A DNA stretch of 55,078 nt from a virus (Duplodnaviria; Caudoviricetes): positions 1 to 55,078 of the IMG/VR virus record IMGVR_UViG_3300043296_000111; one strand, written 5' to 3'. A model generated the notes under the pieces. The model was not told where the DNA came from and made no database searches. It saw only the letters and a list, made by a program, of their open reading frames with translations. Numbering within the stretch: position 1 is the first letter of the stretch; the number at the start of each line of letters is the position of its first letter. Below are positions 24,209 through 38,635 of this stretch, piece after piece. A program made the translations under genes and the position numbers.

Positions 24209-24492
24209 AGTTCACGGTGACCATGGAGTGCGAGGGCTGTGGTCAGAAGTTCGTGGGCCAGGCCGAGCACCTCGTGGACGCGGTCGGCCACCTGGTGAAG
24301 AGCGCCACCGAGGGGGACCACGCGGGCGGCAAGATGAACCAGGAGCTGGAGGCGCTGGCCGCGAAGGCCCAGAGCGTGAACAAGGTGAACGACGTCCTCG
24401 GGGCCCTGGGCATGAGCCCGAGCCAGGTGGTGGTCATGGACAAGGCCGATCTGATCGAACACCTGAAGAAGCTGGAGGGGGACGATGCCTAA
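24205..24492 (+). CDS. Hypothetical protein with CxxC motif (95 aa)
   Basis: GTGA overlap with the previous gene; CEGC. Confidence 0.7.
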   Translation: MKFTVTMECEGCGQKFVGQAEHLVDAVGHLVKSATEGDHAGGKMNQELEALAAKAQSVNKVNDVLGALGMSPSQVVVMDKADLIEHLKKLEGDDA

Positions 24493-25129: not shown

Positions 25130-25135
25130 TCCTCC

Positions 25136-25345
25136 GTGAACCGCAGGGTCGTTCCGAACTGCCTGGGGACCTACCGCCACTTCTTCGTCTGCGAAGACGT
25201 GACCTGGGACGAGCCCACCGACCTCGGTGAACAGTTGAGGGAGATCACCCTGGTCTGCGCTCGCTGCGGTCTGCACGTCTGGATCGACACCACCACCCGT
25301 CCCTTCATGGGCCTCAAGAGCGACCACGACTGGCCGGGAACCTGA
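25136..25345 (+). CDS. Small Cys-containing protein (69 aa)
   Basis: CARC motif; follows the initiator-like gene. Confidence 0.5.
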   Translation: MNRRVVPNCLGTYRHFFVCEDVTWDEPTDLGEQLREITLVCARCGLHVWIDTTTRPFMGLKSDHDWPGT

Positions 25346-25600
25346 TCCGCCACACCGTCCACACCCACCAGGCCCGCAGCGCCAGGACGTCCAGCTCCGA
25401 AAACTCAGGGAGAAAAAAAATTTGAGGGTGTCACCTGTTGAGGGGGATACTATGATCATGTAGACGCAGGCGGCCATGCGAGCAGAGGTGCCGCACCCGG
25501 CCGGGCGGGCGCAGAGTAGCCTGGCCACCCCCCACCACCTGCAGGCACACCCCCCGCAAGTCCTTGTGTGTCAACGTGTTAGCGTGTGTGAGCACGGCCA

Positions 25601-25628
25601 GGTTAACATAATGTCTATTATACGAAGT
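25601..25628 (-). other. dif-like XerC/XerD recombination site
   Basis: Minus strand ACTTCGTATAA-TAGACA-TTATGTTAACC: 11-6-11 layout; right arm matches E. coli XerD arm TTATGTTAAAT at 9 of 11. Confidence 0.8.
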
Positions 25629-25666
25629 CGCCTCGCTAACGTGCAGGGGGACATACACTTACAGCG

Positions 25667-26032
25667 TCACCCCTCCCCGCTGGTCAGTAGCCTGGGCCCC
25701 TCACCTGGCCCATTCTCAACTAGCACCTCGTCTATACCTGCCCCACGCGGGGGCCTGGGCGGCCTCACCTCCTCGACCGCTTCGAGGGCTGGCAGGTGGA
25801 CGATCCCTAGCACCATGGCCCCTTCCTGGGCATGGATGTGGACCTGGGCCTGGTCTGCAGCTCCCAGGCCGAAGCGACCAAGCGCATCTAATGCGCGGAT
25901 CCGGTCGGCACTCTTCTCTTCGGGGTCGTTCGCGATGGTCGTGAGCACCTCCAGACCGGCGTACAGCCGGGCCCGACACGCGGCCCGTATGACGTTCGGA
26001 GACGCTCCCGCAGCACCCTCGTTTTCGGACAT
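25667..26032 (-). CDS. Putative terminase small subunit (121 aa)
   Basis: GAGGTG SD; helical LTTIAND...DRIRALDALGRFG followed by a beta tail; first gene of the minus arm. Confidence 0.5.
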   Translation of the reverse strand: MSENEGAAGASPNVIRAACRARLYAGLEVLTTIANDPEEKSADRIRALDALGRFGLGAADQAQVHIHAQEGAMVLGIVHLPALEAVEEVRPPRPPRGAGIDEVLVENGPGEGPRLLTSGEG

Positions 26033-26137
26033 CTCACCTCCCAGTGGAACGGCCTGGACGTTGGCGGTTGCTGGCGCGGTCCGCAAGATGCAACCCCAGT
26101 GTCTACCTCGTTTTCTTCCTGACCTCGAACGACACTG

Positions 26138-26166
26138 TTGACACGACACGACGTCGTCGCAATAGT
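26138..26166 (+). promoter_or_regulatory. sigma70-like early promoter P1
   Basis: TTGACA-17-AATAGT at the start of the plus arm; weak -10. Confidence 0.6.
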
Positions 26167-26224
26167 GGAGGTGTCAGGGGAGACGCTCCCCGGCAGAGGA
26201 CCTCTCTCAGAAAGGACGGACAAG

Positions 26225-26512
26225 ATGACGGACCGGACACCGACACCGACCACCAGAAGCTGGATCGCTGAGATGCTCGCAGCGGGTACGACGGATGACT
26301 GGTGCTCGAACGCGCTCATCTTCCCTGACGCGCACTCTGCGGCCAACTACGCCAAGGACCTCTTCTCCAGGTGGATGGGCTGCAGCGACTGGCGGGTGGT
26401 CGAAGTGGACCCGACCCACGAGAAGTACGGGCCGCCCAACCGACCTTCCACCGCGACCCCGGAGCAGCTCGAAGGCTCCGACTACACCGACGCTGACGGC
26501 TTCCCAGCGTGA
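26225..26512 (+). CDS. Early hypothetical protein (95 aa)
   Basis: GAAAGGA SD; NALIF...YAKDLFSRW motif. Confidence 0.8.
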   Translation: MTDRTPTPTTRSWIAEMLAAGTTDDWCSNALIFPDAHSAANYAKDLFSRWMGCSDWRVVEVDPTHEKYGPPNRPSTATPEQLEGSDYTDADGFPA

Positions 26513-26521
26513 ACACCTCCA

Positions 26522-26561
26522 CCGGGCCTGGAGCTTCGGAGGGTTCGACTCCCTCCCCCGG
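26522..26561 (+). ncRNA. tRNA-like T-arm/acceptor element 1
   Basis: ccggg-(11 nt)-ggaggg-TTCGACT-ccctcc-cccgg, intergenic. Confidence 0.7.
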
Positions 26562-26595
26562 CTTTGCCTCTCTCTCTCCTGACAAGGATGACCAG

Positions 26596-27039
26596 ATGAC
26601 TCGCTTCGCTTCCCCGGTGACCAGCTTCGCCGCCGCCGACGCCTTCCTGGGCTCGAAGGACTGGCGCACCATCGGCCACAACACCGCCATCAGGCGGGTG
26701 AGCCCTGACCGGATCGCCGCCCGCTACCACTACACCGACGTCGTGACCTACCACCAGGACGGCCGGATCACCTTCTCCACCGGGGGCTGGATGTCGGTGA
26801 CCACCAAGGTCCGCTTGAACGCTCTCAGCCCCTGCCAGGTCTGGTCCGAGGGGGACGGGGACTGGGCGATCCAGGGCCCGACCGGGGACGCCGCCAGGTT
26901 CGAGGACGGGGTCACCATGGACGCTGAGATGACCTTCCAGAACTGGAAGGAAGCGCGGTTCCTCCTCCGGGAGAGCCGGGCCCGGAGAATGGCGGTGCTC
27001 GACGCCCAGGACGCAGCGGCCAACGGGGACTCAGCGTGA
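26596..27039 (+). CDS. Early hypothetical protein (147 aa)
   Basis: AAGGA SD; TGGWMSVTTKVRLN motif. Confidence 0.8.
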   Translation: MTRFASPVTSFAAADAFLGSKDWRTIGHNTAIRRVSPDRIAARYHYTDVVTYHQDGRITFSTGGWMSVTTKVRLNALSPCQVWSEGDGDWAIQGPTGDAARFEDGVTMDAEMTFQNWKEARFLLRESRARRMAVLDAQDAAANGDSA

Positions 27040-27051
27040 CCCTCTCTCGAC

Positions 27052-27095
27052 GCCTGGACTGGAGGACCGGCGGGGTTCGACTCCCCGCCCCAGGC
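27052..27095 (+). ncRNA. tRNA-like T-arm/acceptor element 2
   Basis: gcctgg-(11 nt)-ggcgggg-TTCGACT-ccccgcc-ccaggc, intergenic. Confidence 0.75.
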
Positions 27096-27128
27096 CTTGC
27101 CTCTCACCTCTCTCGAAAGGACGCTCAG

Positions 27129-27407
27129 ATGACCTTCTCACACGAGACCAAACGCCGCGACTGGAAGGTGGCCGGGACGGCCTACTACGCCACCGCCGAG
27201 GCCTTCGGAGACCGGATCGCCAAGGCCAACCGCCGCCGGGAGACAGCCCGCAAGCGGGCCCTCTTCGCTGACACCAAGGCCAACCGGAAGCTCTACGGGA
27301 CGCCCAGCGCCAACTTCCGGTTCACCCCGATGCCCTCCAGCGCCACCGACCTCCCGCCCTGGTTGGCCGCCTGGCCCGCCGCGATCACCGACGCGGTGAC
27401 CTCGTGA
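27129..27407 (+). CDS. Early basic hypothetical protein (92 aa)
   Basis: CTCTCTCGAAAGGA leader before ATG. Confidence 0.75.
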   Translation: MTFSHETKRRDWKVAGTAYYATAEAFGDRIAKANRRRETARKRALFADTKANRKLYGTPSANFRFTPMPSSATDLPPWLAAWPAAITDAVTS

Positions 27408-27610
27408 GGCCGCTCCTCTTCGCCGCCCTGGTGGCCCTCACGGGCTGCCAGGTGGACATCCAGGTGGACGTCCAGGTGGGCTCTGGCCCGCCGCCCTGCG
27501 CCTGGACGGTCAACCACTCCGGGGTCGAAGAGTGCCACGTCGCCGGGCCCCTGCCCGACCCGCCTGGGAGCTTCATGGCGGTGGACACGACCTCCCACCT
27601 GGTTCTCTGA
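27404..27610 (+). CDS. Putative small lipoprotein (68 aa)
   Basis: MRPLLFAALVALTG-C lipobox; GTGA overlap. Confidence 0.6.
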   Translation: MRPLLFAALVALTGCQVDIQVDVQVGSGPPPCAWTVNHSGVEECHVAGPLPDPPGSFMAVDTTSHLVL

Positions 27611-27626
27611 GATGACCACCCTGAAC

Positions 27627-27669
27627 GCCTGGAGCGGCCCACTGGCGGGTTCGAGTCCCGCCCCCAGGC
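27627..27669 (+). ncRNA. tRNA-like T-arm/acceptor element 3
   Basis: gcctgg-(11 nt)-ggcggg-TTCGAGT-cccgcc-c-ccaggc, intergenic. Confidence 0.75.
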
Positions 27670-27689
27670 CTACCACCAAGGAGACGCAC

Positions 27690-28580
27690 ATGAGAGACCT
27701 GAACGTGCCCACCGAGATCACCACCGCGATGGACAGCGGAGCTGCCCTGGCGGTGTCACTCTCCGGCGGGAAGGACTCCCAGGCCATGGCTCTGGCGCTC
27801 GTCGCCTGGGCCAAGCGGGAAGGCTACTGGGGCGTCAACGAGATCTTCGCGGTCCACGCCGATCTGGGCCGCATGGAGTGGAGCGGAGAGAACGCCACTG
27901 GGCCCATCGTCGCCGCCCAGGCTGCGGCCCTGGACCTGGAGCTGCACGTCGTGAGACGGAGCGACGGCCGAGACCTCCTGGAGCGGATCCGAGACCGGCG
28001 GGAAGCGGTCGGACCTGACAAGCCCTTCTGGCCCAGCTCCAAGACCCGCTACTGCACCTCGGACCTCAAGCGCGAGCCGATCAACAAGCTCCTCAGGAAG
28101 TGGACCCACATCATCAGCGCGGAGGGGATCAGGAAGGCCGAGAGCAAGGCCAGAGCCAACAAGCCCTGCTGGGCTCCCCGCAAGCGGATCCTCTCCCAGA
28201 CCCGCCAGGCCCACACCTGGAACCCGATCCTCGACTGGACTGAGGACGATGTCTGGGCCGCCCTGGGTGGCCGCGACGGCGACCTGGTCCACCCGGCCTA
28301 CGGGATGGGGAACGAACGACTGAGCTGCGCCCTCTGCGTCTTCGGCTGCGACGGCGACCTGGTCAACGGAGCCCGGAACAACCCGCAGCTCTTCGACGCC
28401 CTCCTGGAGATGGAGCGCGACAGCGGCTGGCGCTGGACACAGTCGCGGAGCCTCGAAGAGGTGAAGCTCTGCCTCGACGGGAAGGCCCCGCTGGAGCTGG
28501 TCGAGATGACCGCCGGGCCCGACAAAGGGCAGATGAAGCTGCGGATCCAGCTCCCAGTCCTCAACACCTCAGGAGCCTGA
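27690..28580 (+). CDS. PAPS reductase-family (adenine nucleotide alpha-hydrolase) protein (296 aa)
   Basis: PP-loop SLSGGKDS, RYCTSDLKREP, GIRKAESKARA, RLSCALC. Confidence 0.88.
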   Translation: MRDLNVPTEITTAMDSGAALAVSLSGGKDSQAMALALVAWAKREGYWGVNEIFAVHADLGRMEWSGENATGPIVAAQAAALDLELHVVRRSDGRDLLERIRDRREAVGPDKPFWPSSKTRYCTSDLKREPINKLLRKWTHIISAEGIRKAESKARANKPCWAPRKRILSQTRQAHTWNPILDWTEDDVWAALGGRDGDLVHPAYGMGNERLSCALCVFGCDGDLVNGARNNPQLFDALLEMERDSGWRWTQSRSLEEVKLCLDGKAPLELVEMTAGPDKGQMKLRIQLPVLNTSGA

Positions 28581-28582
28581 AC

Positions 28583-29242
28583 ATGATCTACCTGCTGGGC
28601 GACATGACCAACGGCACGGCCAAGCTGGCCGACACCTACCCGAGGGGGATCGGGCGCTGCTACGTGGACTCGCGCCTGGACCCCTTCCCGGAGGAGCCCT
28701 GGATCCTGGACAACGGGGTCTTCCGGGCCTGGAACCGCAACGGCCGCGACCCCTCCACCGACTACGCCAAGGAGTACGCCTTCTTCGAGGCGAAGCTCGC
28801 GGAGGTGGCCGACCGGGCCGACGAAGGCCGGGGCCCTCTCTTCGTGGTCGCGGCCGACAGGCCTGGAGACCCGGCCAGCCTGGACGTGACGCTGGCCTGG
28901 CTGGACGACTGGCAGGAGCTGCTCGACGGACAGGACATCCCGATCTACGCCGCCGTGCAGGACGGGATGACCCCTGACACGGTCGAGGCCTCCGGGCTCC
29001 TGGAGCGGGTCTCCGGGCTCTTCCTGGGTGGCTCTGACGAGTTCAAGCTCACCGCCGCTGACTGGCGCGAGCTGACCTCGAAGCACGGGCTGGGATTCCA
29101 CTGGGGACGCTGCACTCAGAGCGTGATCGCGACAGCGGTCGCCCTCGGCTGCGACAGCGCCGACAGCTCCCACCCCTGCCGCCTGGCCGGTGCCAGGTGG
29201 GCCAGATTCCTGGAGGTCTTCGACGCTGAGATGGCCGCCTGA
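28583..29242 (+). CDS. TGT/DpdA-like TIM-barrel protein (219 aa)
   Basis: WILDNG, AVQDG, LFLGGS, HWGR and DSADSS follow the order of tRNA-guanine transglycosylase-like motifs. Confidence 0.5.
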   Translation: MIYLLGDMTNGTAKLADTYPRGIGRCYVDSRLDPFPEEPWILDNGVFRAWNRNGRDPSTDYAKEYAFFEAKLAEVADRADEGRGPLFVVAADRPGDPASLDVTLAWLDDWQELLDGQDIPIYAAVQDGMTPDTVEASGLLERVSGLFLGGSDEFKLTAADWRELTSKHGLGFHWGRCTQSVIATAVALGCDSADSSHPCRLAGARWARFLEVFDAEMAA

Positions 29243-29255
29243 AAAGCGGAAAGCA

Positions 29256-29284
29256 TTGACCCGACATCGTGTCGGCTGTAACGT
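29256..29284 (+). promoter_or_regulatory. sigma70-like promoter P2 with inverted repeat in the spacer
   Basis: TTGACC-17-TAACGT; CCGACA-tcg-TGTCGG. Confidence 0.7.
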
Positions 29285-29323
29285 GGTAGCAGGACTCTCT
29301 CTCTCTCTCGAAAGGACCCCAAC

Positions 29324-29587
29324 ATGAGCTTCGCCCTCTCGACCACCGCCGACCGCGACCCGGAGAAGCAACCGGCCATCGTGATCACCTTCATGGAGGA
29401 TGACGCCCTCTCCTTCGACTGCACCGACGCCGCCTTCTCCTGGCTCGACTCCAACGTCAAAGGCAACCTCGCCAGGCTCCGCATGATCCGCGACAGCCAG
29501 CGCGACCTGGACCGCCAGCACCGCAGCATCCGACAGGACAACGAGATGCTCCAGGAGATCGCCACCGCCCTCGAACCCCACCTCTAG
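29324..29587 (+). CDS. Hypothetical protein (87 aa)
   Basis: CT-repeat leader with GAAAGGA SD. Confidence 0.8.
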   Translation: MSFALSTTADRDPEKQPAIVITFMEDDALSFDCTDAAFSWLDSNVKGNLARLRMIRDSQRDLDRQHRSIRQDNEMLQEIATALEPHL

Positions 29588-29599
29588 GAGGACCACCAG

Positions 29600-29944
29600 A
29601 TGATCCGAATCGGAAGCTACACTCCCTGGGGCGCGGCCGAGACCGTGACCCCGCTGGGCACCGAGGGCGCGGCCTTCGTATCGACGCCCGGCCACGGCGG
29701 GGTCTACCTGCCGCCAGCACTGGCCAAGAAGATGCCAGCCAGCATCGTCGCCGCCTCCTTCCTGAAGAGCGCAACCTGGTGGGAAGAGGACTGCGATGCC
29801 GCCTGGCCGATGGTGGTCCTGGAGCTGGGATCGGAGGCCGACCAGGCCGCCGCCCGCTCCTTCCTCGGCTGCTACAAGCCGGAGCTGCTCGCTCACCTGG
29901 ACGGGGCATACCCGACCGGCCTTCTCTCTCTCGAAAGGAACTGA
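29600..29944 (+). CDS. DUF7007-like protein (114 aa)
   Basis: TPWG, STPGHGG and WWEEDC motifs. Confidence 0.7.
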   Translation: MIRIGSYTPWGAAETVTPLGTEGAAFVSTPGHGGVYLPPALAKKMPASIVAASFLKSATWWEEDCDAAWPMVVLELGSEADQAAARSFLGCYKPELLAHLDGAYPTGLLSLERN

Positions 29945-29947
29945 CCC

Positions 29948-30103
29948 ATGGACGACACGACCTACAGCATCATCCGGTTCAGCATGGACGCGCCCCAGGA
30001 GGTGATCAAGGAGGGCCTGACGCTCGAAGAGGCCCAGGAGCACTGCCAGGACGAGGACACGCACGGCCCAGGCTGGTTCGACGGCTACCGGGAGGAAGTG
30101 TGA
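29948..30103 (+). CDS. Small acidic protein (51 aa; not in the ORF track)
   Basis: MDDTTYSIIRF...GLTLEEAQEHC...WFDGYREEV; has the CTCTCTCGAAAGGA leader. Confidence 0.75.
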   Translation: MDDTTYSIIRFSMDAPQEVIKEGLTLEEAQEHCQDEDTHGPGWFDGYREEV

Positions 30104-30969
30104 ACTCGACCACCTTCGGACTCCTCGGAGCTGGGGCCCCGTTCAGTGTGGCCTACGGGATGGGGGTGGACTCCACCGCCATGCTCGTGGGCCTGGCCGA
30201 GCGGGGGATCCGGCCCGACGCGATCCTCTTCGCTGACGTTGGCGGGGAGAAGCCGGAGACCTACGCCTACCAGGCCACCATGGACGCCTGGCTGCGCTCT
30301 GTAGGCTTCCCGGAGATCACAGTGGTCCGCTACCCTGGGCCGAAGAGCGGAGCCTACGACACGCTCGAAGGGAACTGCATCTCGAACGGGACGCTGCCCT
30401 CGCTGGCCTTCGGCTTCAAGAGCTGCTCGCTGAAGTGGAAGGTCGAGCCCCAGAAGAAGTGGGAGCGGGCCTGGCAGCCCGCCCAGGACGCCTGGGCCAA
30501 GGGCCTGCCCATCATCAAGGCCATCGGCTTCGACGCCTCTCCCAAGGACTCGAAGCGGTGCAGCTACGCGGCCGACAAAGTCGAGGACGATCCGAAATAC
30601 CACTACTGGTATCCGCTCCGCGACTGGGGCTGGACACGCGAGGAGTGCATGGCCCAGATCGAAGCGGCCGGGCTCCCGGTCCCGATGAAGAGCGCCTGCT
30701 TCTTCTGCCCCGCGAACCAGGTCGAGGAGATCGTCTGGCTGACCGACAAACACCCGGAGCTGGCCGACCGGATCATCGCGATGGAGAACAACGCCAGGCC
30801 CAGGCTGAAGAAGATCGACGGGCTCTGGCGCAACGGGGTGAAGGGCACACGGGGCGGGATCCCGAAGCCTGGCCGGATGGCTGACTTCATCCACCGCTAC
30901 CGGGGCACGGCCGAGAAGACCTGGCCGATCCAGCTCCCCGTGATTCAACCGACCAAGGAGGCCGCATGA
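30100..30969 (+). CDS. Second PAPS-reductase-like/adenine nucleotide alpha-hydrolase (289 aa)
   Basis: GTG with GGAGGA SD; AYGMGVDS, FADVGGEKPETY, CSLKWK, KSACFFCP. Confidence 0.85.
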   Translation: MNSTTFGLLGAGAPFSVAYGMGVDSTAMLVGLAERGIRPDAILFADVGGEKPETYAYQATMDAWLRSVGFPEITVVRYPGPKSGAYDTLEGNCISNGTLPSLAFGFKSCSLKWKVEPQKKWERAWQPAQDAWAKGLPIIKAIGFDASPKDSKRCSYAADKVEDDPKYHYWYPLRDWGWTREECMAQIEAAGLPVPMKSACFFCPANQVEEIVWLTDKHPELADRIIAMENNARPRLKKIDGLWRNGVKGTRGGIPKPGRMADFIHRYRGTAEKTWPIQLPVIQPTKEAA

Positions 30970-31865
30970 CCAGAGCCGTTGACCTCTTCGCTGGCTGGGG
31001 TGGGTTCACCCTGGGAGCGGAGCAGGCCGGAGTCGATGTCGTCTGGGCCGCGAACCACTGGCCCATGGCGGTGGAGGCCCACGCGCTGAACCACCCCGAC
31101 ACGATCCACGCCTGCCAGGATCTGACCCAGGCCGACTGGACCAAGCTCCCCGAGTACGAGCTGCTCCTCGCGAGCCCGGCCTGCCCTGGCCACTCGACGG
31201 CGAGCCAGCCCAGGCGACGGGCCTACCACGACGAGTCCCGCGCCACCGCCTGGGCGGTCGTGGACTGCGCCGAGGTGACCTGGCCGGAGACCCTGATCGT
31301 GGAGAACGTGCCCGCCTTCCGACGCTGGCAGCTCTACCCGATCTGGAAGAGCGCACTGCGCCAGCTAGGCTACGAACTCGAAGAGCACGTCCTCCGGGCC
31401 AGCCACTACGGGGTGCCCCAGCGCCGGGACCGGCTCTTCATCCTGGGCTCGCGGGTGGGGGCCCACATCACCCCCCGGAAGCCCTCGCAGGAGCCCGCCT
31501 TCGGGCCCTGCATCGACTGGGACGCCGGGGAGTGGCGACCCATCACGGTCGCAGGCAAGGGCGCTCAGAAGCGCATGGCTGCGGGCCACGCCCGGCACGG
31601 GGATCGGTTCCTCAGTCAACACACGACGGGCCACCGAGGCATCAGCCTGGACGAGCCCATCAGGACCATCACGGCCCAGGACCACTGGCTCGCGGTGGAC
31701 GGAGATCTCTACCGCCCGCTCACGATCCGAGAGACGGCTCGCGGGATGGGCTTCCCGGAGGACTACGCCTGGCCAGAGAACGCCACGCGGACGGACTCCA
31801 TCATCGGCCTGGGCAACGCAGTCTGCCCGCCCGTGGTCGCGGACATCATCAAGGAGGCAGCATGA
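30966..31865 (+). CDS. C5 DNA cytosine methyltransferase (299 aa)
   Basis: DLFAGWGG, SPAC, ENV, PQRRDR and GNAV motifs. Confidence 0.92.
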   Translation: MTRAVDLFAGWGGFTLGAEQAGVDVVWAANHWPMAVEAHALNHPDTIHACQDLTQADWTKLPEYELLLASPACPGHSTASQPRRRAYHDESRATAWAVVDCAEVTWPETLIVENVPAFRRWQLYPIWKSALRQLGYELEEHVLRASHYGVPQRRDRLFILGSRVGAHITPRKPSQEPAFGPCIDWDAGEWRPITVAGKGAQKRMAAGHARHGDRFLSQHTTGHRGISLDEPIRTITAQDHWLAVDGDLYRPLTIRETARGMGFPEDYAWPENATRTDSIIGLGNAVCPPVVADIIKEAA

Positions 31866-32203
31866 ACAAGACGAGAGCAGTGGTCACCTGGAGGCACCTC
31901 GGCGCTCACCCCCACCAGGGCCGCCAGCTCCACACCTGGATGGGCGAGTTCCCAACGGTGACCGAGACGGTCTGGGACCAGGAGCTGGACGACCAGCTCC
32001 AGCCCAGCAACTTCATCTGCCGGATCGAATCCTGGCAGCCGACCGGCAGCCCGGCGACCGTGGGGTTCTGGTTCCGGCTGGTCAAGCAGGGCCGCCACGC
32101 GGGAGGGCGCAGGTACTCGACCCACAAGACGCTGGCCCTCGCCCAGGCCTACGCCGACCGCTGGGCCAGGGGCCGCTTCTACTACCAGCGCGACGTCAAG
32201 TAA
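31862..32203 (+). CDS. Hypothetical protein (113 aa)
   Basis: ATGA overlap; GGAGG SD. Confidence 0.7.
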   Translation: MNKTRAVVTWRHLGAHPHQGRQLHTWMGEFPTVTETVWDQELDDQLQPSNFICRIESWQPTGSPATVGFWFRLVKQGRHAGGRRYSTHKTLALAQAYADRWARGRFYYQRDVK

Positions 32204-32231
32204 CACGATGCAACATGATGCAACGTCAGCG

Positions 32232-32260
32232 TTGACACGACGGGATGACGGGTGTATTAG
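32232..32260 (+). promoter_or_regulatory. sigma70-like promoter P3
   Basis: TTGACA-17-TATTAG; a GATGCAAC direct repeat lies just upstream. Confidence 0.65.
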
Positions 32261-32297
32261 TTCAGTAGGATCTCTCTCTCATCGAAAGGAGGCCACC

Positions 32298-32594
32298 ATG
32301 GCCGCACCGCTCTACGACGACCTCGGTCAGCGCCTGACGGACTGCTGCGCTGCCTACTCCACCTACGCGGAGTGCGGGACCTTCGACAGGCCCGGCGAGA
32401 CGACTGAGATCCTCTGCTGCAAGAGCTGCTACCACCCGGTCGCGATAGGCCAGGGTGACGGCACAGAGTTCCGGCCCGGAGTCACCTCCGAGGCCTACTT
32501 CCGGGAGACGTTCCGCCGCCAGATGTGGCGGGACATGATCTCCCAGACCCGGCCAGAGAACTGGCCAACATTCTCTCGAAAGGAGACAGCATGA
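32298..32594 (+). CDS. Cys-rich hypothetical protein (98 aa)
   Basis: TDCC...CCKSC; GAAAGGAGG SD. Confidence 0.75.
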   Translation: MAAPLYDDLGQRLTDCCAAYSTYAECGTFDRPGETTEILCCKSCYHPVAIGQGDGTEFRPGVTSEAYFRETFRRQMWRDMISQTRPENWPTFSRKETA

Positions 32595-33454
32595 AAGGCA
32601 TGATGCTTCACTGCGGAGCCGCGCTCGCGACCCGCACCGAGGTCTTCGAGGCGGCAACGCCCGACGAGACCGACACTCACTTCCCGGTGCCCCACGGGGC
32701 CCTGATCGAAGTGATCGAACGCCACGTCCAGGCCAGCGGATTCCACATCGCCAGCGAGGAGTACGGGCTCTGGAAGGATGGCAACCGGATGTTCGGAGTC
32801 TGGGGTCTGCAGAACGGGGCCCAGGTCGAACACGAGGACTTCCAGTTGGTGATGGGGGTCCGCAACTCTCACGACAAAGCGTTCAGCGCCGGGATGGCGG
32901 TGGGCAGCCGAGTCTTCGTCTGCGACAACTTGGCCTTCAGCGCCGAGATCGTGATCGCACGGAAGCACACCAGGTTCATCATGCGTGACCTGGACAAGAT
33001 GGTGGCCGAGGCCAGCGGCAAGATCGCCCAGGCCCGAGTCAGCCAGGCCCAGAGGATCGAAGCCTACAAGGCGACGGACCTGGATGACGCCCAGGCCCAC
33101 GACCTGATCATCAGGAGCGTGGACGCCCAGGTGATGGCCAACAGCTACATCTCGAAGGTCCTCCACGAGTGGAGAGACAGCGAGCACGAGGCGTTCGCAC
33201 CGCGCACCGCGTGGTCGCTCTTCAACGCCTACACCCAGGTCTTCAAACAGACCAACCCGCTGGACCTCACCCAGCGGAGCGTCCGACTCCACGGCCTGAT
33301 GGACATGGCCACGGACGCCTTCGGAGTGGAGGCCGGGACACCGGACTTCGGAGAGGGCCTGCGGAAGCTGGCCGGGATCGAAGAGGTGGAGGCGGTCGAG
33401 GTCGAGGCCGCACCGCTGCCGGAGCCCCAGGCCCGGATGGGATTCACCTTCTAA
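32591..33454 (+). CDS. DUF932-family protein (287 aa)
   Basis: RNSHDK...RVFVCDNLAF and TAWSLFNAYT motifs. Confidence 0.85.
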   Translation: MKGMMLHCGAALATRTEVFEAATPDETDTHFPVPHGALIEVIERHVQASGFHIASEEYGLWKDGNRMFGVWGLQNGAQVEHEDFQLVMGVRNSHDKAFSAGMAVGSRVFVCDNLAFSAEIVIARKHTRFIMRDLDKMVAEASGKIAQARVSQAQRIEAYKATDLDDAQAHDLIIRSVDAQVMANSYISKVLHEWRDSEHEAFAPRTAWSLFNAYTQVFKQTNPLDLTQRSVRLHGLMDMATDAFGVEAGTPDFGEGLRKLAGIEEVEAVEVEAAPLPEPQARMGFTF

Positions 33455-33462
33455 CACGGTAC

Positions 33463-33493
33463 GCCTGGCCGGGGTTCGACTCCCCGGCCGGGC
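33463..33493 (+). ncRNA. tRNA-like element 4: continuous 12-bp minihelix with T-loop
   Basis: gcctggccgggg-TTCGACT-ccccggccgggc (one G-U pair); 12 bp equals tRNA acceptor plus T stem. Confidence 0.8.
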
Positions 33494-33522
33494 CATGCAG
33501 GACCCCTCGAAAGGAGAACGAG

Positions 33523-33702
33523 ATGAGGAAGGCACAACGGAAGGCTGCGGAGGATCTGATCGGCGCAGCGCAGCAGATGATCAAGGCCGTCGTGGATCCC
33601 AGCGGGACGGGCACCAGGCCCCCGCTGGGCTGGGACGTGAGCAAGCTCCAGTTCGCCGTGCAGGCAGCAGAGGGCGAGTTCGCCCAAACGGAGGGAGCCT
33701 GA
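33523..33702 (+). CDS. Hypothetical protein (59 aa)
   Basis: TCGAAAGGAG SD. Confidence 0.7.
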   Translation: MRKAQRKAAEDLIGAAQQMIKAVVDPSGTGTRPPLGWDVSKLQFAVQAAEGEFAQTEGA

Positions 33703-33718
33703 GACGGCCCTCCGCGAC

Positions 33719-33976
33719 ATGAACCGGGCCCAGCTCGAAGAGACCCTGGAGGCCAACACCTCGGACGGCCCGTTCGGATCGGCCCTGGCCGAGGAGATCC
33801 AGGAGGCCCTGAAGTGGGTCTGCAGGACCTGTGGCAAGCCTGGAGCGGACATCGTGACCGACCGCTACGGGATCTACTACGGGACGCTCTGCGAGCCTTG
33901 TGAGAAGGCCAGCGGGATCGGGGACTTCGTCTTCGATGAAGCCTACGCGGGCGAACGACTCGAAGAGGACTACTAG
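33719..33976 (+). CDS. Zn-ribbon protein (85 aa)
   Basis: CRTC...CEPC. Confidence 0.7.
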   Translation: MNRAQLEETLEANTSDGPFGSALAEEIQEALKWVCRTCGKPGADIVTDRYGIYYGTLCEPCEKASGIGDFVFDEAYAGERLEEDY

Positions 33977-33978
33977 CC

Positions 33979-34212
33979 ATGGACAACATCGGAAGACCCT
34001 CGAAGGACCACCTCCTCGCGACCGGGAGGCTCGACAAGGTCCACGACGGGCTGGAGTGCGGAGGCATCACCGAGACCACCATGACCTCGGTCGAGGTCTG
34101 GCAGTGTGGCCGACCGACCAACCAGTGGCGGCTCTACCGCGATCAGCATGGCGTGGATCGGGTGATCCCGGAGCCGAACCCCACCATCAAGGAGTGGCCC
34201 CAGGATGACTGA
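33979..34212 (+). CDS. Hypothetical protein (77 aa)
   Basis: Packed ORF with GAGGA SD. Confidence 0.6.
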   Translation: MDNIGRPSKDHLLATGRLDKVHDGLECGGITETTMTSVEVWQCGRPTNQWRLYRDQHGVDRVIPEPNPTIKEWPQDD

Positions 34213-34579
34213 CATACAGCGAGCTGGACCCGTGATCGGGATCGTGCGCCTGGAGAAGTCACGCCACCCAGACCTGGACCCGGTCAGCTTCGCGACCATC
34301 GACGGCGACCGATACCACCAGGTGCAGGAAGGCGTGGTCCTGGGGGACGACCTGGTGCTGTGGGAGGAGGGCGACAACTCGCGGCCGATGGCCTGCGATC
34401 TGCGCTGGGTGCTCCAGCAGGCGGCCGGGTACATGACCGGCAGCCAGGAGGGCGTGACCCGAGAGGGGGCGGCCGAGCCGACCCGCCAGGAGGAGAACGA
34501 ACGCTACGGCGAGGGGGGAGTCCTCGACGCCGAAGAGGACCAGGCCCACCTCGACCGCCAGGCCGAGGAGGAGGAGTGA
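34205..34579 (+). CDS. Acidic hypothetical protein (124 aa)
   Basis: Overlapping start; acidic C-terminus. Confidence 0.65.
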   Translation: MTDIQRAGPVIGIVRLEKSRHPDLDPVSFATIDGDRYHQVQEGVVLGDDLVLWEEGDNSRPMACDLRWVLQQAAGYMTGSQEGVTREGAAEPTRQEENERYGEGGVLDAEEDQAHLDRQAEEEE

Positions 34580-34950
34580 AGTACGACCTGAAGAAGCCGT
34601 GCCACTCCTGCCCGTTCGTGATCGCCCACAAGTTCCCGCTGCGGCCTGAACGGATCGAAGAGATCCGGGACTGCCGGGCCGAGTTCTCGTGCCACAACAC
34701 CGTGGATTACGACGGCGACGAGGAGGTCTACGACGAGGAGGGGGTGGCCAACCCCTACCGCAGCACCAAGGGGGAGAAGCACTGCATGGGCCACCTGATC
34801 GTCTGCTGGGCAGACTGGGGTGGGTTCGACCAGCTCCAGGCGATGTCGGCTCGCGCTGGGCTGTTCAAGCCGGAGGAGCTGCCGACACCAGAAGAGGCCG
34901 GGGTCTTCGAGACCTGGGACGACATGATCGACGCTAACGAGGAGAGCTGA
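34576..34950 (+). CDS. Cys/His metal-binding hypothetical protein (124 aa)
   Basis: KPCHSCPF, FSCHNT, CMG; GTGA overlap. Confidence 0.75.
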   Translation: MKYDLKKPCHSCPFVIAHKFPLRPERIEEIRDCRAEFSCHNTVDYDGDEEVYDEEGVANPYRSTKGEKHCMGHLIVCWADWGGFDQLQAMSARAGLFKPEELPTPEEAGVFETWDDMIDANEES

Positions 34951-34951
34951 G

Positions 34952-35185
34952 ATGGCGAACACGAAAGACGGTGCCAGATTCATCCACGAGGAGAGCGGGC
35001 TGCGCGAGTTCATCAGGAAGGGGCTCGTGGACCAGCAGGGCCTGGAGGACGACCTGGTGCAGATCGCGATGAACCGCTGGAACGACGACTTGGATCCGGT
35101 GGGCCCCTTCGAGCACGGTGTCTTCGCCGTGATCGTGAGCATCTTCGAGAAGATGGAGGAGCAGCAGGCCAATGACGACGACTGA
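34952..35185 (+). CDS. Acidic hypothetical protein (77 aa)
   Basis: GGAG SD; packed ORF. Confidence 0.7.
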   Translation: MANTKDGARFIHEESGLREFIRKGLVDQQGLEDDLVQIAMNRWNDDLDPVGPFEHGVFAVIVSIFEKMEEQQANDDD

Positions 35186-35501
35186 GCGAGTACGACCTCA
35201 CAGAGACATGACGGGCGAGGAGCTGACCACCTGGAGGCAGCAGCAGGCCGGGGACTACGCCTACGCCAGGAACCAGCGCCGACCCGGCTGGAACCAGCGA
35301 CGGGCGGCCCACTGGTACGGGGTGAGCGAGCGCCAGTGGCAGCGATACGAGAACAGCGAGAGCCCGGTCCCGCTGTCCCTGGTGAAGAGGCTGATCGCAT
35401 ACGAGACGAGCTTCGACCAGACCGTGGACCGGCTCTTCGACACCACGCCCACGCAGCTCGAAGACCAGGACGGGATCTTCCCCGAGCTGAAGGGCCGATG
35501 A
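35172..35501 (+). CDS. XRE-family HTH protein (109 aa)
   Basis: WNQRRAAHWYGVSERQWQRYENSESPVP. Confidence 0.75.
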   Translation: MTTTERVRPHRDMTGEELTTWRQQQAGDYAYARNQRRPGWNQRRAAHWYGVSERQWQRYENSESPVPLSLVKRLIAYETSFDQTVDRLFDTTPTQLEDQDGIFPELKGR

Positions 35502-35770
35502 GCCGCCTCTTCGAGTGGGCCTGGAAGGTGGTGGGCCGCGCTGGCGGGATCGCCCGGTGGATCTTGGTCCTGGGCTTCCTGGCCGCAGCCGCCACCCCGG
35601 CCGAGGCACAGACCCACGCCCGCCTGACCTCGAAGACGGTCTCGGGGGACACCAAGACGTGCTACTACAAGGCCAACGGGAACGTCCACACGAGGCTGGT
35701 CGGGAGGTCCAGGCCCTGCCCGTTGAGCATCCCGATCCGGGAGCCCCTACCACGGCCCAGGCCAGACTGA
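35498..35770 (+). CDS. Small exported protein (90 aa)
   Basis: Hydrophobic signal ending AEA-Q; two Cys in the mature part. Confidence 0.6.
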   Translation: MSRLFEWAWKVVGRAGGIARWILVLGFLAAAATPAEAQTHARLTSKTVSGDTKTCYYKANGNVHTRLVGRSRPCPLSIPIREPLPRPRPD

Positions 35771-35791
35771 CGCGACATCCCAGCCCCCCGG

Positions 35792-35820
35792 TTGCGGGAA
35801 AAAGTTTTCGGACATATTGT
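35792..35820 (+). promoter_or_regulatory. sigma70-like promoter P4
   Basis: TTGCGG-17-TATTGT in an AT-richer intergenic gap. Confidence 0.6.
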
Positions 35821-35844
35821 GGTGGCTCGAAAGGGAGCGAAAGG

Positions 35845-36054
35845 ATGAAGTACAGGATCCACCTGGGCCGTCACGTCGGCCGGGGCAAGACGATCATCGA
35901 CGCTATCGGCAAGCTCATGCTCGAAATCCAGAAGCATGGCACCAAGAGCGAGACCGAGTCGATGGCCCGCTCCATGATGGGGATTGTCGAACTGGGCACC
36001 CGCCTGGATAAGGCCTGGGACGTGAGCACCGGGCTACCTGAGGAGAGAAACTGA
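35845..36054 (+). CDS. Hypothetical protein (69 aa)
   Basis: GGGAG SD downstream of P4. Confidence 0.65.
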   Translation: MKYRIHLGRHVGRGKTIIDAIGKLMLEIQKHGTKSETESMARSMMGIVELGTRLDKAWDVSTGLPEERN

Positions 36055-36266
36055 TGGACCGAGTCAGATCATTCACAGAGCGCCAGATCCTGGAGTGCCT
36101 GAAGGCCCCCGAGCCCCAGACCGTCCGTGACTTCGCGGCCGTTGGGCTCACGCGCAGCCACACCCTGAAACACGCGCTGATGGACCTGGAGCGGGACGGC
36201 CTGATCGTCTCCCGCCTGGAGGGAGCGAGCAGCCCCCTCCGCACCTACGAGCTAGTCGCCCAGTGA
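36054..36266 (+). CDS. Winged-helix DNA-binding protein (70 aa)
   Basis: TERQILECL...TVRDFA...LMDLERDGLI. Confidence 0.65.
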   Translation: MDRVRSFTERQILECLKAPEPQTVRDFAAVGLTRSHTLKHALMDLERDGLIVSRLEGASSPLRTYELVAQ

Positions 36267-36333
36267 ACAACGAGAGTGCCTGTGGGGGGCCACCGTGTCA
36301 GAGTTCTTGCGATTCGCTGGACGGTGGAACTAC

Positions 36334-36386
36334 GGGAGGCGGCCACATCCAAAGCGATGGCCTCCGGGTTCGAGTCCCGGCCTCTC
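36334..36386 (+). ncRNA. tRNA-like element 5 (D-armless cloverleaf)
   Basis: gggagg-c-ggcca(12-nt loop)tggcc-t-ccggg-TTCGAGT-cccgg-cctctc. Confidence 0.7.
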
Positions 36387-36402
36387 TATCGGGAGCAGAA
36401 CG

Positions 36403-36639
36403 ATGAAGTGGATCACGCTGAACGAGGCCGCTGAGTGTACCGGCTTCACGCGCCAGTGGGTCCAGAAGAGGATCGCGGACGGCACCTTCAAGGCCGAGAG
36501 GAAGGGCACCCGAGTCCACATCGACGGCAACTCCGTGCAGGACTGGATGGTGGCCGAGATGGACCTGATCCAGGAGCGATGGAAGTTCTACTATCACCAC
36601 CTTCCCAACGGATACCATGGCAAACCGAAGACCGATTAA
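36403..36639 (+). CDS. Excisionase-like HTH protein (78 aa)
   Basis: WITLNEAAECTGFTRQWVQKRIADGTFKAERKG. Confidence 0.75.
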   Translation: MKWITLNEAAECTGFTRQWVQKRIADGTFKAERKGTRVHIDGNSVQDWMVAEMDLIQERWKFYYHHLPNGYHGKPKTD

Positions 36640-37696
36640 GAAGTCCCCGGAGCAGATCCGGGAAGAGTTCCTGGCCCGACGTCGCACCGGCATCGGGGGC
36701 TCCGACGTGGGGGCCATCATGGGCGTCAGCCAGTACGCGGACGGCCTGGACGTCTACCTCGACAAGGTCGATCCCCCACCCGACTTCGATAACCCTGCGA
36801 TGGAGCGCGGCCGTTACCTGGAGCCCGTCGTCTCGAAGATGTACGAGGTGACGTCGGGCCGCCGCCTGACGCACGGCAAGTTCCGGCGCGACCAGAAGAA
36901 CAAGTTCCTGATCGGCAGCCCGGATCGGATCATCAAGCCGACCGGCCGGAAGCCCTACGCGGCCGACGTCAGCAGCCCCGGAGTCCTGGAGATCAAGACG
37001 GCCAACCGCTACGTCCTGAAGCAGATGAAGGAGGGGGGTCTGCCGAAGAGCTACATCCTCCAGCTCCAGCATTACATGGGCCTGAGTGGCACCACCTGGG
37101 GGGCCTTCGCGGTCCTCTGCGCTGACCCCTGGGAGTTCCTCACCTTCACCGTCGAGTTCGATCAGGAGCTGTACGACAGGGTGCGCGAGGTGCTCCAGCG
37201 ATTCTGGGTGGACCACGTCCAGGCCAAGGTGCCACCGATCCCGAAGCCCATCGACTACGGGGACACCGACGAGGTCAAGGCCGACACGGCCGTCACCATC
37301 TTCGACCCCGGCAGCACCGGCCTGGTGCAGTGGGAGAAGAGCGTCGATCTCTTCCGCGAGGCCAACGCGATGCTGAAGCTGGGAGCCGAGGCGAAGGAGT
37401 TCGCGAGGGCCCAGATGATCGAACAGATGACGATGGGCAAGGGGATCTACGAGGGAGGTGGGGCGAGGGTCCACTACCTCCAGAGCAAGGGGCGCAGGTC
37501 GTTCCAGCAGCGCGAGCTGCGAGCGATGCAGCCGCTGGATCCCATCAAGATGGGGTCGCTGCTCACCGAGGCAGGCCTCGACCTCGACACCATAGAGACC
37601 CTCTTCGAGAACGCGACACTCAACCTGGACGACTTCGTGAAGGTCGGGAAGCCGTTCGACACCGTGAGAATGTACGACAGCAAGGAGCTGATCTGA
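36617..37696 (+). CDS. YqaJ-like viral exonuclease (359 aa)
   Basis: RRTGIGGSD, GRYLEP, SPDR, LEIKT, QLQHYM. Confidence 0.92.
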   Translation: MANRRPIKKSPEQIREEFLARRRTGIGGSDVGAIMGVSQYADGLDVYLDKVDPPPDFDNPAMERGRYLEPVVSKMYEVTSGRRLTHGKFRRDQKNKFLIGSPDRIIKPTGRKPYAADVSSPGVLEIKTANRYVLKQMKEGGLPKSYILQLQHYMGLSGTTWGAFAVLCADPWEFLTFTVEFDQELYDRVREVLQRFWVDHVQAKVPPIPKPIDYGDTDEVKADTAVTIFDPGSTGLVQWEKSVDLFREANAMLKLGAEAKEFARAQMIEQMTMGKGIYEGGGARVHYLQSKGRRSFQQRELRAMQPLDPIKMGSLLTEAGLDLDTIETLFENATLNLDDFVKVGKPFDTVRMYDSKELI

Positions 37697-38520: not shown

Positions 38521-38635
38521 GACCATAGGCATGACCCTGGTCGGGCTGGCGGGGGTCGCGGTGATCGGGCTGCTGATGACCCTGGCCGGGGGGCTCCTCG
38601 GATACATCTGGTCCGTCCTGGTGGATAGACCATGA
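38513..38635 (+). CDS. 40-aa single-TM peptide (not in the ORF track)
   Basis: MIETIGMTLVGLAGVAVIGLLMTLAGGLLGYIWSVLVDRP; GGAGA SD. Confidence 0.6.
   Translation: MIETIGMTLVGLAGVAVIGLLMTLAGGLLGYIWSVLVDRP

What the first reader, a model, noticed from the sequence alone, without database searches (positions are those of the whole stretch)
26522..36386. Five tRNA 'top-half' mimics punctuate the early operons
Seen: five intergenic elements (26522-26561, 27052-27095, 27627-27669, 33463-33493, 36334-36386) share a T-arm GGG-TTCGA[C/G]T-CCC. Its 3' side continues into a helix pairing with the element's 5' end (GCCTGG...CC[A/G]GGC in three), giving about 11-13 stacked bp. Stem sequences differ while pairing is kept. 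Elements 1-3 replace the D and anticodon arms with an 11-nt linker, and element 4 is a continuous 12-bp minihelix. Each lies after a stop codon and just before the next SD. None is a full tRNA or has a correctly placed CCA. Known: RNase P, RNase Z and the CCA-adding enzyme recognise the 12-bp acceptor/T helix and T-loop. Inference: the phage may use host tRNA-processing enzymes to cut early transcripts into units (like mitochondrial tRNA punctuation or T7 RNase III sites), or release mini-tRNAs as decoys for tRNA-targeting defences. I do not recognise this as a described phage system.
Basis: partly seen in the sequence, partly recalled or inferred. Interest (0 to 1): 0.88.

Follow-up and report, generated by a model that had tools for sequence, protein, structure and literature searches.

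The report
Mini tRNA mimics between phage genes
Five short RNA elements that copy only the upper half of a tRNA sit between early genes of this phage, the same element recurs unannotated in many cultured phages of Streptomyces and Mycobacterium, and it probably lets the phage use the host's tRNA-trimming enzymes to cut its long messages.

Summary
GGTTCGANTCC occurs 5 times, all on the + strand and all intergenic, against 0.21 expected. Each copy is a tRNA T arm stacked on an acceptor-like stem, 11-13 bp in all.

E1-E3 carry an 11-nt one-sided linker with a conserved GG. E4 is a 12-bp minihelix. E5 has a third arm with 3 compensatory pairs against its orthologue. None is a tRNA or reaches an Rfam threshold.

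The 40-nt architecture is widespread. It occurs 15 times in an R4-like viral contig and 8 times in Streptomyces phage Endor1, all intergenic. It also occurs in Mycobacterium phage Oaker, Gordonia phage VanLee and Corynebacterium phage StAB. One copy matches 132 phage records by BLAST.

Among 44 model hits, 396 of 396 pair cells are paired and 103 show double changes. It is rare in host chromosomes: 3 of 151 genomes.

Best reading (0.5): a cis signal for host RNase P and/or RNase Z, like plant mitochondrial t-elements. This is inferred; no RNA data exist. My ten paper searches found no description.

The parts
26522..26561 (+). E1: 5-bp acceptor-like stem, 11-nt linker (GG at linker positions 4-5), 6-bp T stem, T loop TTCGACT. 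Lies between the stop at 26510-26512 and the start at 26596.
   Evidence: R1 scores it at 43.4 bits, but it was in the model seed.
27052..27095 (+). E2: 6-bp stem GCCTGG/CCAGGC, 11-nt linker, 7-bp T stem, T loop TTCGACT. Lies between the stop at 27037-27039 and the start at 27129.
   Evidence: R1 38.2 bits, E 2.4e-6, not in the seed. The minimum-energy fold contains the proposed helices. The orthologue is at G001 10845.
27627..27669 (+). E3: 6-bp stem, 11-nt linker, 6-bp T stem, T loop TTCGAGT, one bulged C. Lies between the stop at 27608-27610 and the start at 27690.
   Evidence: R1 38.6 bits, E 2e-6, not in the seed. The G001 orthologue has a G-C to C-G compensatory change in the T stem.
33463..33493 (+). 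E4: continuous 12-bp minihelix capped by T loop TTCGACT, with no linker. Lies between the stop at 33452-33454 and the start at 33523.
   Evidence: z -3.74; 0 of 200 shuffles fold as well; 25.6 bits. A relative, G010, has a 12-bp minihelix with the same loop and an unrelated stem sequence.
36334..36386 (+). E5: three-helix tRNA-like element. It has a 7-bp acceptor-like stem with a G-U pair, a middle hairpin, a T arm and T loop TTCGAGT. It ends 16 nt before the start at 36403.
   Evidence: The consensus fold with the G001 orthologue has 17 pairs, 3 of them compensatory in the middle arm. R1 finds the T arm only.

Best explanation
The five elements are transcribed as part of the early polycistronic mRNAs. 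Each folds into a minimal mimic of the tRNA elbow and top half.

Shown: the acceptor-like stem stacks coaxially on a T stem, giving 11-13 bp against 12 bp in tRNA. A true T loop caps the helix. In E1-E3 an 11-nt single strand carries a GG.

Inferred: the GG reaches the T loop as D-loop G18-G19 does. Host tRNA-maturation enzymes measure this helix from the T loop. RNase P would cut at the 5' edge and/or RNase Z at the 3' edge of each element. This would split the operon transcript into units with defined ends and release a mini-RNA of about 40-55 nt that could receive CCA. The nearest analogue is the plant-mitochondrial t-element.

In the Streptomyces and Mycobacterium phage copies a second hairpin begins 2-6 nt after the element. 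It would then sit at the new 5' end of the downstream mRNA as a protective cap. The window's own copies lack this hairpin.
For: 1. tRNA-specific conservation. In 18 gap-free copies the invariant columns are the closing G-C of the outer stem, the linker GG, and T-arm bases G52, G53, T54, T55, C56, A58, C61 and C62. Loop positions 59-60, which vary in tRNAs, vary here too.

2. Structure. 198 of 198 pair cells are paired and 8 of 11 pairs show double changes. The covariation score is 0.687 against 0.160 in shuffles (0 of 500). Slid controls give 39-59% paired. With 44 model hits (36 distinct), 396 of 396 cells are paired, 103 are double-change cells, and the score is 0.740 against 0.151.

3. Helix length is fixed. 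It is 5+6 bp in most copies and 11-13 bp in the window. Two unrelated E4-type minihelices are both exactly 12 bp.

4. RNA-level and cis position.
- All copies run with the flanking genes: 5 of 5 in the window, 5 of 5 in G001, 15 of 15 in G003, 8 of 8 in Endor1.
- All 8 Endor1 hits lie in gaps between annotated genes.
- In VanLee 5 of 5 consecutive gaps hold one.

5. Only 16-34 nt separate an element from the next start codon. No promoter fits there, so downstream genes need read-through.

6. Upstream of the g7 orthologues the window has E1, while G001 has a promoter-like TTGACC-17-AATAGT. This would fit two ways of making the same mRNA 5' end.

7. The carrier phages share no obvious gene, and the element is rare in host chromosomes: 3 of 151 Actinomycetes genomes, one copy each. 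This points to a universal host factor exploited by phages.

8. Established knowledge.
[quoted passage not shown] The 12-bp stack acts as a ruler. Replacing the T loop lowers and shifts cleavage (PMC11143913, passages read).
- t-elements found with the same GGTTCRANYCC motif mark mRNA ends made by RNase P and RNase Z (PMC1920247, abstract and passages read).
Against: - No RNA evidence of any kind. No RNA run holds the window, so no cleavage site, released RNA or CCA addition has been seen.
- There is no 3' CCA, which bacterial RNase P prefers. After the helix the window copies have C then T or A. The actinophage copies have A then C (35 and 41 of 44).
- Most copies stack 11 bp, not 12, and the split is 5+6 rather than 7+5.
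- Folding energies of E1-E3 and E5 are not better than shuffles.
- Copies used for the pair counts were chosen by a script or a model that rewards pairing, so the 100% figure is partly by construction. The slid controls and the diversity of stems are the fairer measure.
- The promoter motifs were read by eye and fail the scan's consensus rule.
- The promoter/element swap is a single case.
Confidence: 0.5

Rival explanations
1. Uncut structural insulator. The element is not cleaved. Its stable tRNA-like fold blocks exonucleases (RNase J from the 5' side, PNPase from the 3' side). Alternatively it binds the ribosome through its elbow and helps initiation or re-initiation at the Shine-Dalgarno sequence 16-50 nt downstream.
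For: - Constant placement 8-16 nt after a stop codon and 16-50 nt before a start codon.
- A second hairpin follows in the actinophage copies.
- All copies run with transcription.
Against: - A plain hairpin would serve as a roadblock.
- This reading does not explain why exactly the tRNA-invariant T-loop bases and the linker GG are invariant.
- It does not explain why the helix length is held at tRNA length.
- No ribosome-binding precedent was tested here.
Confidence: 0.15
2. Decoy or sponge. The elements, embedded or released, titrate a host protein that binds the tRNA top half. Candidates are a defence toxin acting on acceptor ends, the CCA-adding enzyme, or T-loop modification enzymes. This can coexist with processing.
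For: - High copy number in early, host-takeover regions: 15 in G003 and 8 in Endor1, next to an Ocr-like anti-restriction gene in phiScoe10.
- The element is specific to phages and mobile elements: 3 of 151 host genomes, and the best-scoring chromosomal copy lies beside recombinase and DUF3854 genes.
Against: - There is no anticodon arm, so the common anticodon nucleases cannot be the target.
- The strict position between a stop codon and a Shine-Dalgarno sequence is not needed for a decoy.
- No link to any defence system was found or tested.
Confidence: 0.12
3. Terminators or attenuators without a U tract, of the kind reported for the early region of actinophage phiC31. I recall that report by title only; the paper (PMC306685) is not held.
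For: - The elements are G+C-rich hairpins at gene ends.
- E4 is a perfect 12-bp hairpin with z -3.74.
Against: - None is followed by a T run, and none is listed by the terminator scan.
- Downstream genes have no room for a promoter.
- 8-15 elements in series would silence distal genes if they terminated efficiently.
- An 11-nt one-sided bulge and an invariant T loop are not terminator features.
- Model R1 finds no copy in phiC31.
Confidence: 0.08
4. DNA-level element: a recombination hot spot that shuffles gene cassettes, or a protein-binding site.
For: - Mosaic joints lie at or just after element ends in related metagenome contigs. Joints occur at 36382 and 36386 in two runs, and a loose end at 26584 switches to the G001-type sequence.
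- An element is present or absent together with gene insertions or deletions.
- One 40-mer is identical in a Mycobacterium phage and a Streptomyces phage whose flanks differ.
Against: - The strict single orientation with transcription argues for an RNA.
- So does compensatory pairing with free stem sequence.
- So does tRNA-type loop conservation.
- Shuffling at repeats may be a by-product rather than the function.
Confidence: 0.05

Closest known systems
Plant-mitochondrial t-elements (PMC1920247; abstract and passages read)
   Same: - Non-tRNA sequences that keep the GGTTCRANYCC T arm and an acceptor-like stem.
- They lie beside protein genes within long transcripts.
- They are reported to direct RNase P and RNase Z cuts that form mRNA 5' and 3' ends.
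- Some released t-elements carry non-templated C or CCA.
   Different: - t-elements are degenerate cloverleaves of about 74 nt derived from tRNA genes in an organelle.
- The elements here are 31-53 nt, mostly a fixed 40-nt design with an 11-nt GG linker.
- They occur in phages, in up to 15 copies per genome.
- Cleavage has not been shown.
Synthetic acceptor/T-stem-loop model substrates of RNase P (review PMC11143913; passages read)
   Same: E4 and the G010 copy are natural 12-bp helices capped by a T loop. This is the design of the model hairpins that are cut at the canonical site.
   Different: - The natural copies lack the 3' RCCA.
- They are embedded in mRNA.
- E1-E3 add an elbow-mimicking linker.
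mascRNA / MEN-beta tRNA-like RNAs (Rfam RF01684)
   Same: A tRNA-like fold inside a longer transcript. By my recall it is processed by RNase P and RNase Z. It is the only Rfam family with any score on the window.
   Different: - Scores of 25.1 and 18.9 bits against a gathering score of 42.5.
- mascRNA is a eukaryotic cloverleaf with more arms.
- The elements here are not members of this family.
Mitochondrial tRNA punctuation and tRNA genes embedded in bacterial or phage operons
   Same: The tRNA shape serves as the cut mark between cistrons.
   Different: Those are functional tRNAs with anticodon arms. The elements here cannot decode.
tRNA-like domains of tmRNA and bacterial Y RNA (YrlA)
   Same: Acceptor/T-arm stack with a reduced D-loop substitute.
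   Different: - ARAGORN finds no tmRNA.
- No Rfam match to either family at E up to 10.
- There is no attached mRNA-like or Ro-binding domain.

Membership tests
tRNA (ARAGORN; Rfam clan CL00001) | Cloverleaf with anticodon arm and D arm | tested here: not met
   - ARAGORN finds 0 genes in bacterial mode.
- In mitochondrial, armless-tolerant mode, none of its 9 calls overlaps an element.
- No tRNA-clan hit in window 26000-37000 at E up to 10.
tRNA (ARAGORN; Rfam clan CL00001) | T arm with G53-C61 and loop T54 T55 C56 R57 A58 | tested here: met
   5 of 5 window elements. These bases are invariant in the 18-copy alignment, except R57, which is G in at least 90% of copies.
tRNA (ARAGORN; Rfam clan CL00001) | 12-bp coaxial acceptor/T stack followed by a discriminator and CCA | tested here: inconclusive
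   The stack is 11-13 bp. No encoded CCA follows it. By my recall many bacterial tRNA genes also lack an encoded CCA.
t-element-like processing signal (functional class) | GGTTCRANYCC motif within a non-tRNA fold next to protein genes | tested here: met
   The motif definition is taken from PMC1920247.
t-element-like processing signal (functional class) | mRNA 5' or 3' ends coincide with element boundaries, and the element is cut by RNase P or RNase Z | not testable with these tools
   No RNA run is listed for the window. Only DNA contigs could be laid.
mascRNA-menRNA (RF01684) | Score at or above the Rfam gathering score of 42.5 bits | tested here: not met
   25.1 bits for E4 and 18.9 bits for E5.
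Any Rfam 15 family | Match at the gathering score | tested here: not met
   - 0 matches on the whole window.
- At E up to 1 on five related loci, only a tRNA-Sec hit at 26.1 bits and a wrong-strand plastid hit appear.
Intrinsic terminator | G+C-rich hairpin followed at once by a T run | tested here: not met
   None of the 5 terminator-like sites in 23000-41000 is an element. The tails read C, then T or A, then mixed bases.
tmRNA tRNA-like domain | tmRNA gene with a tag reading frame | tested here: not met
   ARAGORN tmRNA search finds 0.

The most novel reading that the evidence does not exclude
Phages of at least one bacterial phylum, and probably two, carry a dedicated 40-nt minimal mimic of the tRNA elbow. 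The hosts are Actinomycetota for the cultured phages. For this window the host may be Gemmatimonadota, judged from named terminase relatives.

On this reading the phages use the mimic to recruit host RNase P, RNase Z and perhaps the CCA-adding enzyme. This would punctuate their early operons, as tRNAs punctuate mitochondrial transcripts. Each transcript would also release many mini-tRNAs that could occupy tRNA-directed host factors.
Probability: 0.4. Interest if true: 0.85.

Novelty: new variant of a known kind. Interest (0 to 1): 0.8.

Why it matters
If the reading is right, this is a compact, portable RNA-processing signal that tailed phages have spread across many genomes, yet it is missing from genome annotation and from Rfam.

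- It would show that bacterial viruses use tRNA punctuation, so far a hallmark of organelles, to manage polycistronic early messages.
- It would explain how strings of tiny early genes are expressed in Streptomyces and Mycobacterium phages.
- It would give a natural minimal substrate for studying how RNase P and RNase Z read the tRNA elbow.
- It would offer a 40-nt part for cutting synthetic operons in actinobacteria.

It is directly testable in laboratory systems: Endor1 on S. coelicolor and Oaker or Konstantine on M. smegmatis mc2 155. Even if the function differs, the motif is a well-supported new structured RNA class: 44 copies, all pairs kept, many compensatory changes.

Tried and rejected
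- **Known families.** ARAGORN in all modes and Rfam at gathering and permissive thresholds give no membership.
- **Window against cultured phages.** blastn of window 26000-29000 finds no match.
- **RNA evidence.** No RNA holder is listed. The four runs laid were DNA contigs only, so they say nothing on transcripts.
- **Genome pattern scan.** CTGGAG..GGGTTCGACTCCC returned 120 stretches, capped. Model R1 was run on the 80 listed loci and finds no hit in them, so I take the matches to be ordinary tRNAs (not checked with ARAGORN). The scan served only as a negative control.
- **Viral pattern scan.** The first scan returned mostly true tRNAs by eye. The useful contigs G002-G005 were picked out by hand.
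- **Link to the phiC31 U-less terminators.** The paper is not held. phiC31 has one loosely E5-like candidate at 31456-31506, and R1 finds nothing there. I dropped this link.
- **Own error, corrected.** I first noted that G001's extra element sits at the window's promoter gap 29243-29323. Synteny shows it lies between the g12-like and g14 orthologues, where the window has an extra gene. The real element-for-promoter swap is upstream of g7.
- **Alternative fold of E4.** Weak Rfam hits pair its 3' strand with GGCCCGG inside the upstream gene. That 5' strand sits 15 nt before the stop codon in the window and 30 nt before it in G001, so I rejected it.
- **Closer relatives.** More relatives found through the terminase gave only one further copy, in G010.
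- **Papers.** Supplementary files could not be seen. A mention of these repeats in the supplements of phage genome papers cannot be excluded.

Full report
**What the window is.** It is a 55,078-bp IMG/VR virus record with 64.8% G+C, and CheckV rates it 56% complete.
- The minus strand carries structural genes: large terminase, portal and major head protein.
- The plus strand from about 23.9 to 40.6 kb carries early and replication genes: a DnaD-like protein, a PAPS-reductase-like protein, a DNA methyltransferase, RecE-like and RecT proteins, and a DnaB-like helicase.
- No cultured phage resembles the DNA of 26000-29000.
- Of the 120 terminase relatives listed, only five carry a name that gives an organism or source. 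Four are MAGs of Gemmatimonadota at 45-63% identity and one is a marine sediment metagenome. This is a weak hint to the host.

- GGTTCGANTCC occurs five times, always on the plus strand, against 0.21 expected (0 of 100 shuffles reach 5).
- Each site is a T arm whose 3' strand runs straight on into a helix with the 5' end of the element.
- E1-E3 have a 5-6 bp outer stem, an 11-nt one-sided linker, a 6-7 bp T stem and a 7-nt T loop.
- E4 is a continuous 12-bp minihelix.
- E5 has a 7-bp acceptor-like stem, a middle hairpin and a T arm.
- The elements start 9, 12, 16, 8 and 67 nt after the upstream stop codon.
- They end 34, 33, 20, 29 and 16 nt before the next start codon, each of which has a Shine-Dalgarno sequence.
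- Folding energy alone is not persuasive. Only E4 beats its shuffles (z -3.74), and the others score -0.2 to -1.4. The minimum-energy folds of E1, E3 and E5 differ in part from the proposed folds.

**They belong to no known family.**
- ARAGORN finds no tRNA or tmRNA in any mode.
- Rfam 15 gives nothing at gathering score.
- At E up to 10 it gives only sub-threshold mascRNA-menRNA matches on E4 and E5: 25.1 and 18.9 bits against 42.5.

**The closest relative supports the folds.** The one close relative is G001, a 53-kb viral contig with about 75-97% protein identity. It has five elements on the gene strand.
- The E3 orthologue has a G-C to C-G swap in the T stem.
- The E4 orthologue changes G-C to G-U.
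- The E5 orthologue has three compensatory pairs in the middle hairpin. The rival minimum-energy pairing of E5 is not kept there.
- G001 has no E1. At that place, upstream of the g7 orthologue, it has a promoter-like TTGACC-17-AATAGT.
- A metagenome contig switches to that G001-type sequence just after E1.
- G001 has one extra element between two genes where the window has an inserted gene.

**The family is much wider than the window.** A pattern scan of viral contigs gave mostly true tRNAs but also unrelated high-G+C phages with the same design.
- G003 is a complete 57-kb contig with terminal repeats. It has 15 copies on one strand within about 7 kb, in three stem subtypes, and none is called a tRNA.
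- Its repeat led to cultured phages. One 81-nt copy matches 132 phage records: 113 Streptomyces, 13 Mycobacterium and 6 Riemerella. The Riemerella hits are unverified. In 37 of the 40 rows shown, no feature is annotated under the match.

I aligned 18 gap-free 40-nt copies: E1, one from G001, nine from G003 and seven from Streptomyces phage phiScoe10.
- All 198 pair cells are paired and 8 of 11 pairs show double changes.
- Covariation is 0.687 against 0.160 in shuffles. Slid controls give 39-59% paired.

Results with the covariance model R1 built from this alignment:

| Target | Result |
|---|---|
| Window | E3 and E2 at E about 2e-6, E4 at 0.002; none was in the seed; nothing else convincing |
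| 80 bacterial loci matching a T-arm pattern (probably tRNAs), 562 kb | 0 hits |
| 100 viral loci, many with tRNA-like pattern matches, 920 kb | only G003, G002 and two weak hits |
| Streptomyces phage Endor1, whole genome | 8 strong hits; all 8 lie in gaps between annotated genes, on the gene strand, at 43.5-48.1 kb |
| Mycobacterium phage Oaker, 6-kb stretch | 5 strong and 2 weak hits, all in gaps |
| Gordonia phage VanLee | 5 of 5 consecutive gaps hold a copy with a longer linker |
| Corynebacterium phage StAB | one imperfect copy |
| 151 sampled Actinomycetes genomes | 3 genomes have one copy each; the best lies beside a serine-recombinase fragment and a DUF3854 gene |

The host-genome search scored only 43 candidates per genome, so it may miss copies.

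Over 44 hits (36 distinct), 396 of 396 cells pair, with 103 double-change cells. These copies were chosen by pairing-aware methods, so the slid controls and the variety of stems are the fair measure. Those controls are clear.

**What is conserved.** The invariant bases are the ones that tRNAs keep: G52, G53, T54, T55, C56, A58, C61 and C62. R57 is G in at least 90% of copies. Loop positions 59-60 vary, as they do in tRNAs. A GG at linker positions 4-5 is also invariant. I infer that the first three linker bases span the T stem and let the GG meet the T loop as G18-G19 do. No three-dimensional test was possible.
- Helix length is tightly held: 5+6 bp in most copies.
- Both E4-type minihelices are exactly 12 bp, with unrelated stems.
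- Flanks are biased: A before the element in 32 of 44 copies, then A and C after it in 35 and 41 of 44.
- In the actinophage copies a second hairpin of varied sequence starts 2-6 nt downstream. The window lineage has a pyrimidine-rich tract instead.

**Mechanism.**
- The strand bias, the compensatory pairing and the position argue for an RNA acting in cis.
- Efficient termination is unlikely. No T run follows any element. No promoter fits before the next gene. Up to 15 copies stand in series.
- The phages that carry the element share no obvious gene, so the partner is probably a universal host factor that reads the tRNA elbow and measures the acceptor/T helix.
- RNase P does exactly this. [quoted passage not shown]
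- Plant-mitochondrial t-elements were found with the same T-arm motif. They mark mRNA ends made by RNase P and RNase Z (PMC1920247, abstract and passages).
- I therefore favour processing of the early operon transcripts at the elements (0.5).
- The E1-for-promoter swap fits this reading. So does the hairpin that would sit at the new 5' end in the actinophage copies.

Rivals are an uncut stabiliser or translation aid (0.15), a decoy (0.12), an attenuator (0.08) and a DNA-level recombination site (0.05). Mosaic joints at element ends and an identical 40-mer in Oaker and Endor1 show that the elements coincide with exchange points. This may be a by-product.

**Novelty.** Ten full-text searches found no description of such elements in phages. 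Rfam has no family for them. The GenBank records examined leave them unannotated. Supplements and unheld journals could not be checked. The principle, a tRNA-like processing signal, is known from organelles and from mascRNA. The 40-nt elbow mimic and its use between phage genes appear to be new.

Noticed in passing
window 29243-29323 and 32204-32297; L020 5270-5370 and 7967-8050: Intergenic gaps without an element hold promoter-like hexamers: TTGACC-17-TAACGT and TTGACA-17-TATTAG in the window, and TTGACC-17-AATAGT in G001. The first has a small palindrome in its spacer and is conserved in G001. These gaps and most elements are followed by a shared leader, CTCTCTC...CGAAAGGA. All were read by eye, and they fail the strict consensus scan.
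   Followed up: partly
window 27690-29242: The gene after E3 is PAPS-reductase-like with a PP-loop (phrog_424, E 2.9e-32). The next gene has a weak, sub-threshold match to queuine tRNA-ribosyltransferase (PF01702, 20.2 bits against 26.3). Together they may form a 7-deazaguanine DNA-modification module.
   Followed up: no
window 20284-21903 (-): Of the 120 large-terminase relatives listed, the four named for an organism come from Gemmatimonadota MAGs (45-63% identity); a fifth is named only for a marine sediment metagenome. DNA holders are marine sediment and seawater metagenomes. The host may therefore not be an actinobacterium.
   Followed up: partly
L166 (G003 48000-56959) and L167 (G003 1-3000), minus strand: 15 element copies in three stem subtypes. 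Each is followed by ACGAC, a second hairpin, a Shine-Dalgarno sequence and a start codon. Blocks of about 75 nt are nearly identical between copies, and one copy lies in the terminal repeat.
   Followed up: partly
L295 4549-4588 (Mycobacterium phage Oaker) and L294 47753-47792 (Streptomyces phage Endor1): The 40-nt element is identical in phages of two host genera, while the flanking sequences differ.
   Followed up: no
window 36382-36386, 33514 and 26584: Contigs from other metagenomes leave the window's sequence at or just after the ends of E5, E4 and E1 and continue into other genes. These are mosaic junctions at the elements (tables 5c and 7).
   Followed up: no
L171 (phiC31) 31456-31506: A loosely E5-like candidate between gp13 and gp14: short outer stem, GAAA hairpin and T arm with loop TTCGAAT. 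Model R1 does not detect it.
   Followed up: partly
L172 (Corynebacterium phage StAB) 28172-28237: The imperfect element is preceded by a 7-bp hairpin with a 7-nt loop TTTCAAA. Both lie in a 590-nt unannotated gap after the anti-repressor gene.
   Followed up: no
window 36279-36327: A 7-bp stem (CCACCGT/ACGGTGG) with a large loop lies just upstream of E5 in the 136-nt gap.
   Followed up: no
window 27060: Three of four metagenome runs read G instead of T in the E2 linker. This gives the ACGGG form seen in G001, and the GG is kept.
   Followed up: no
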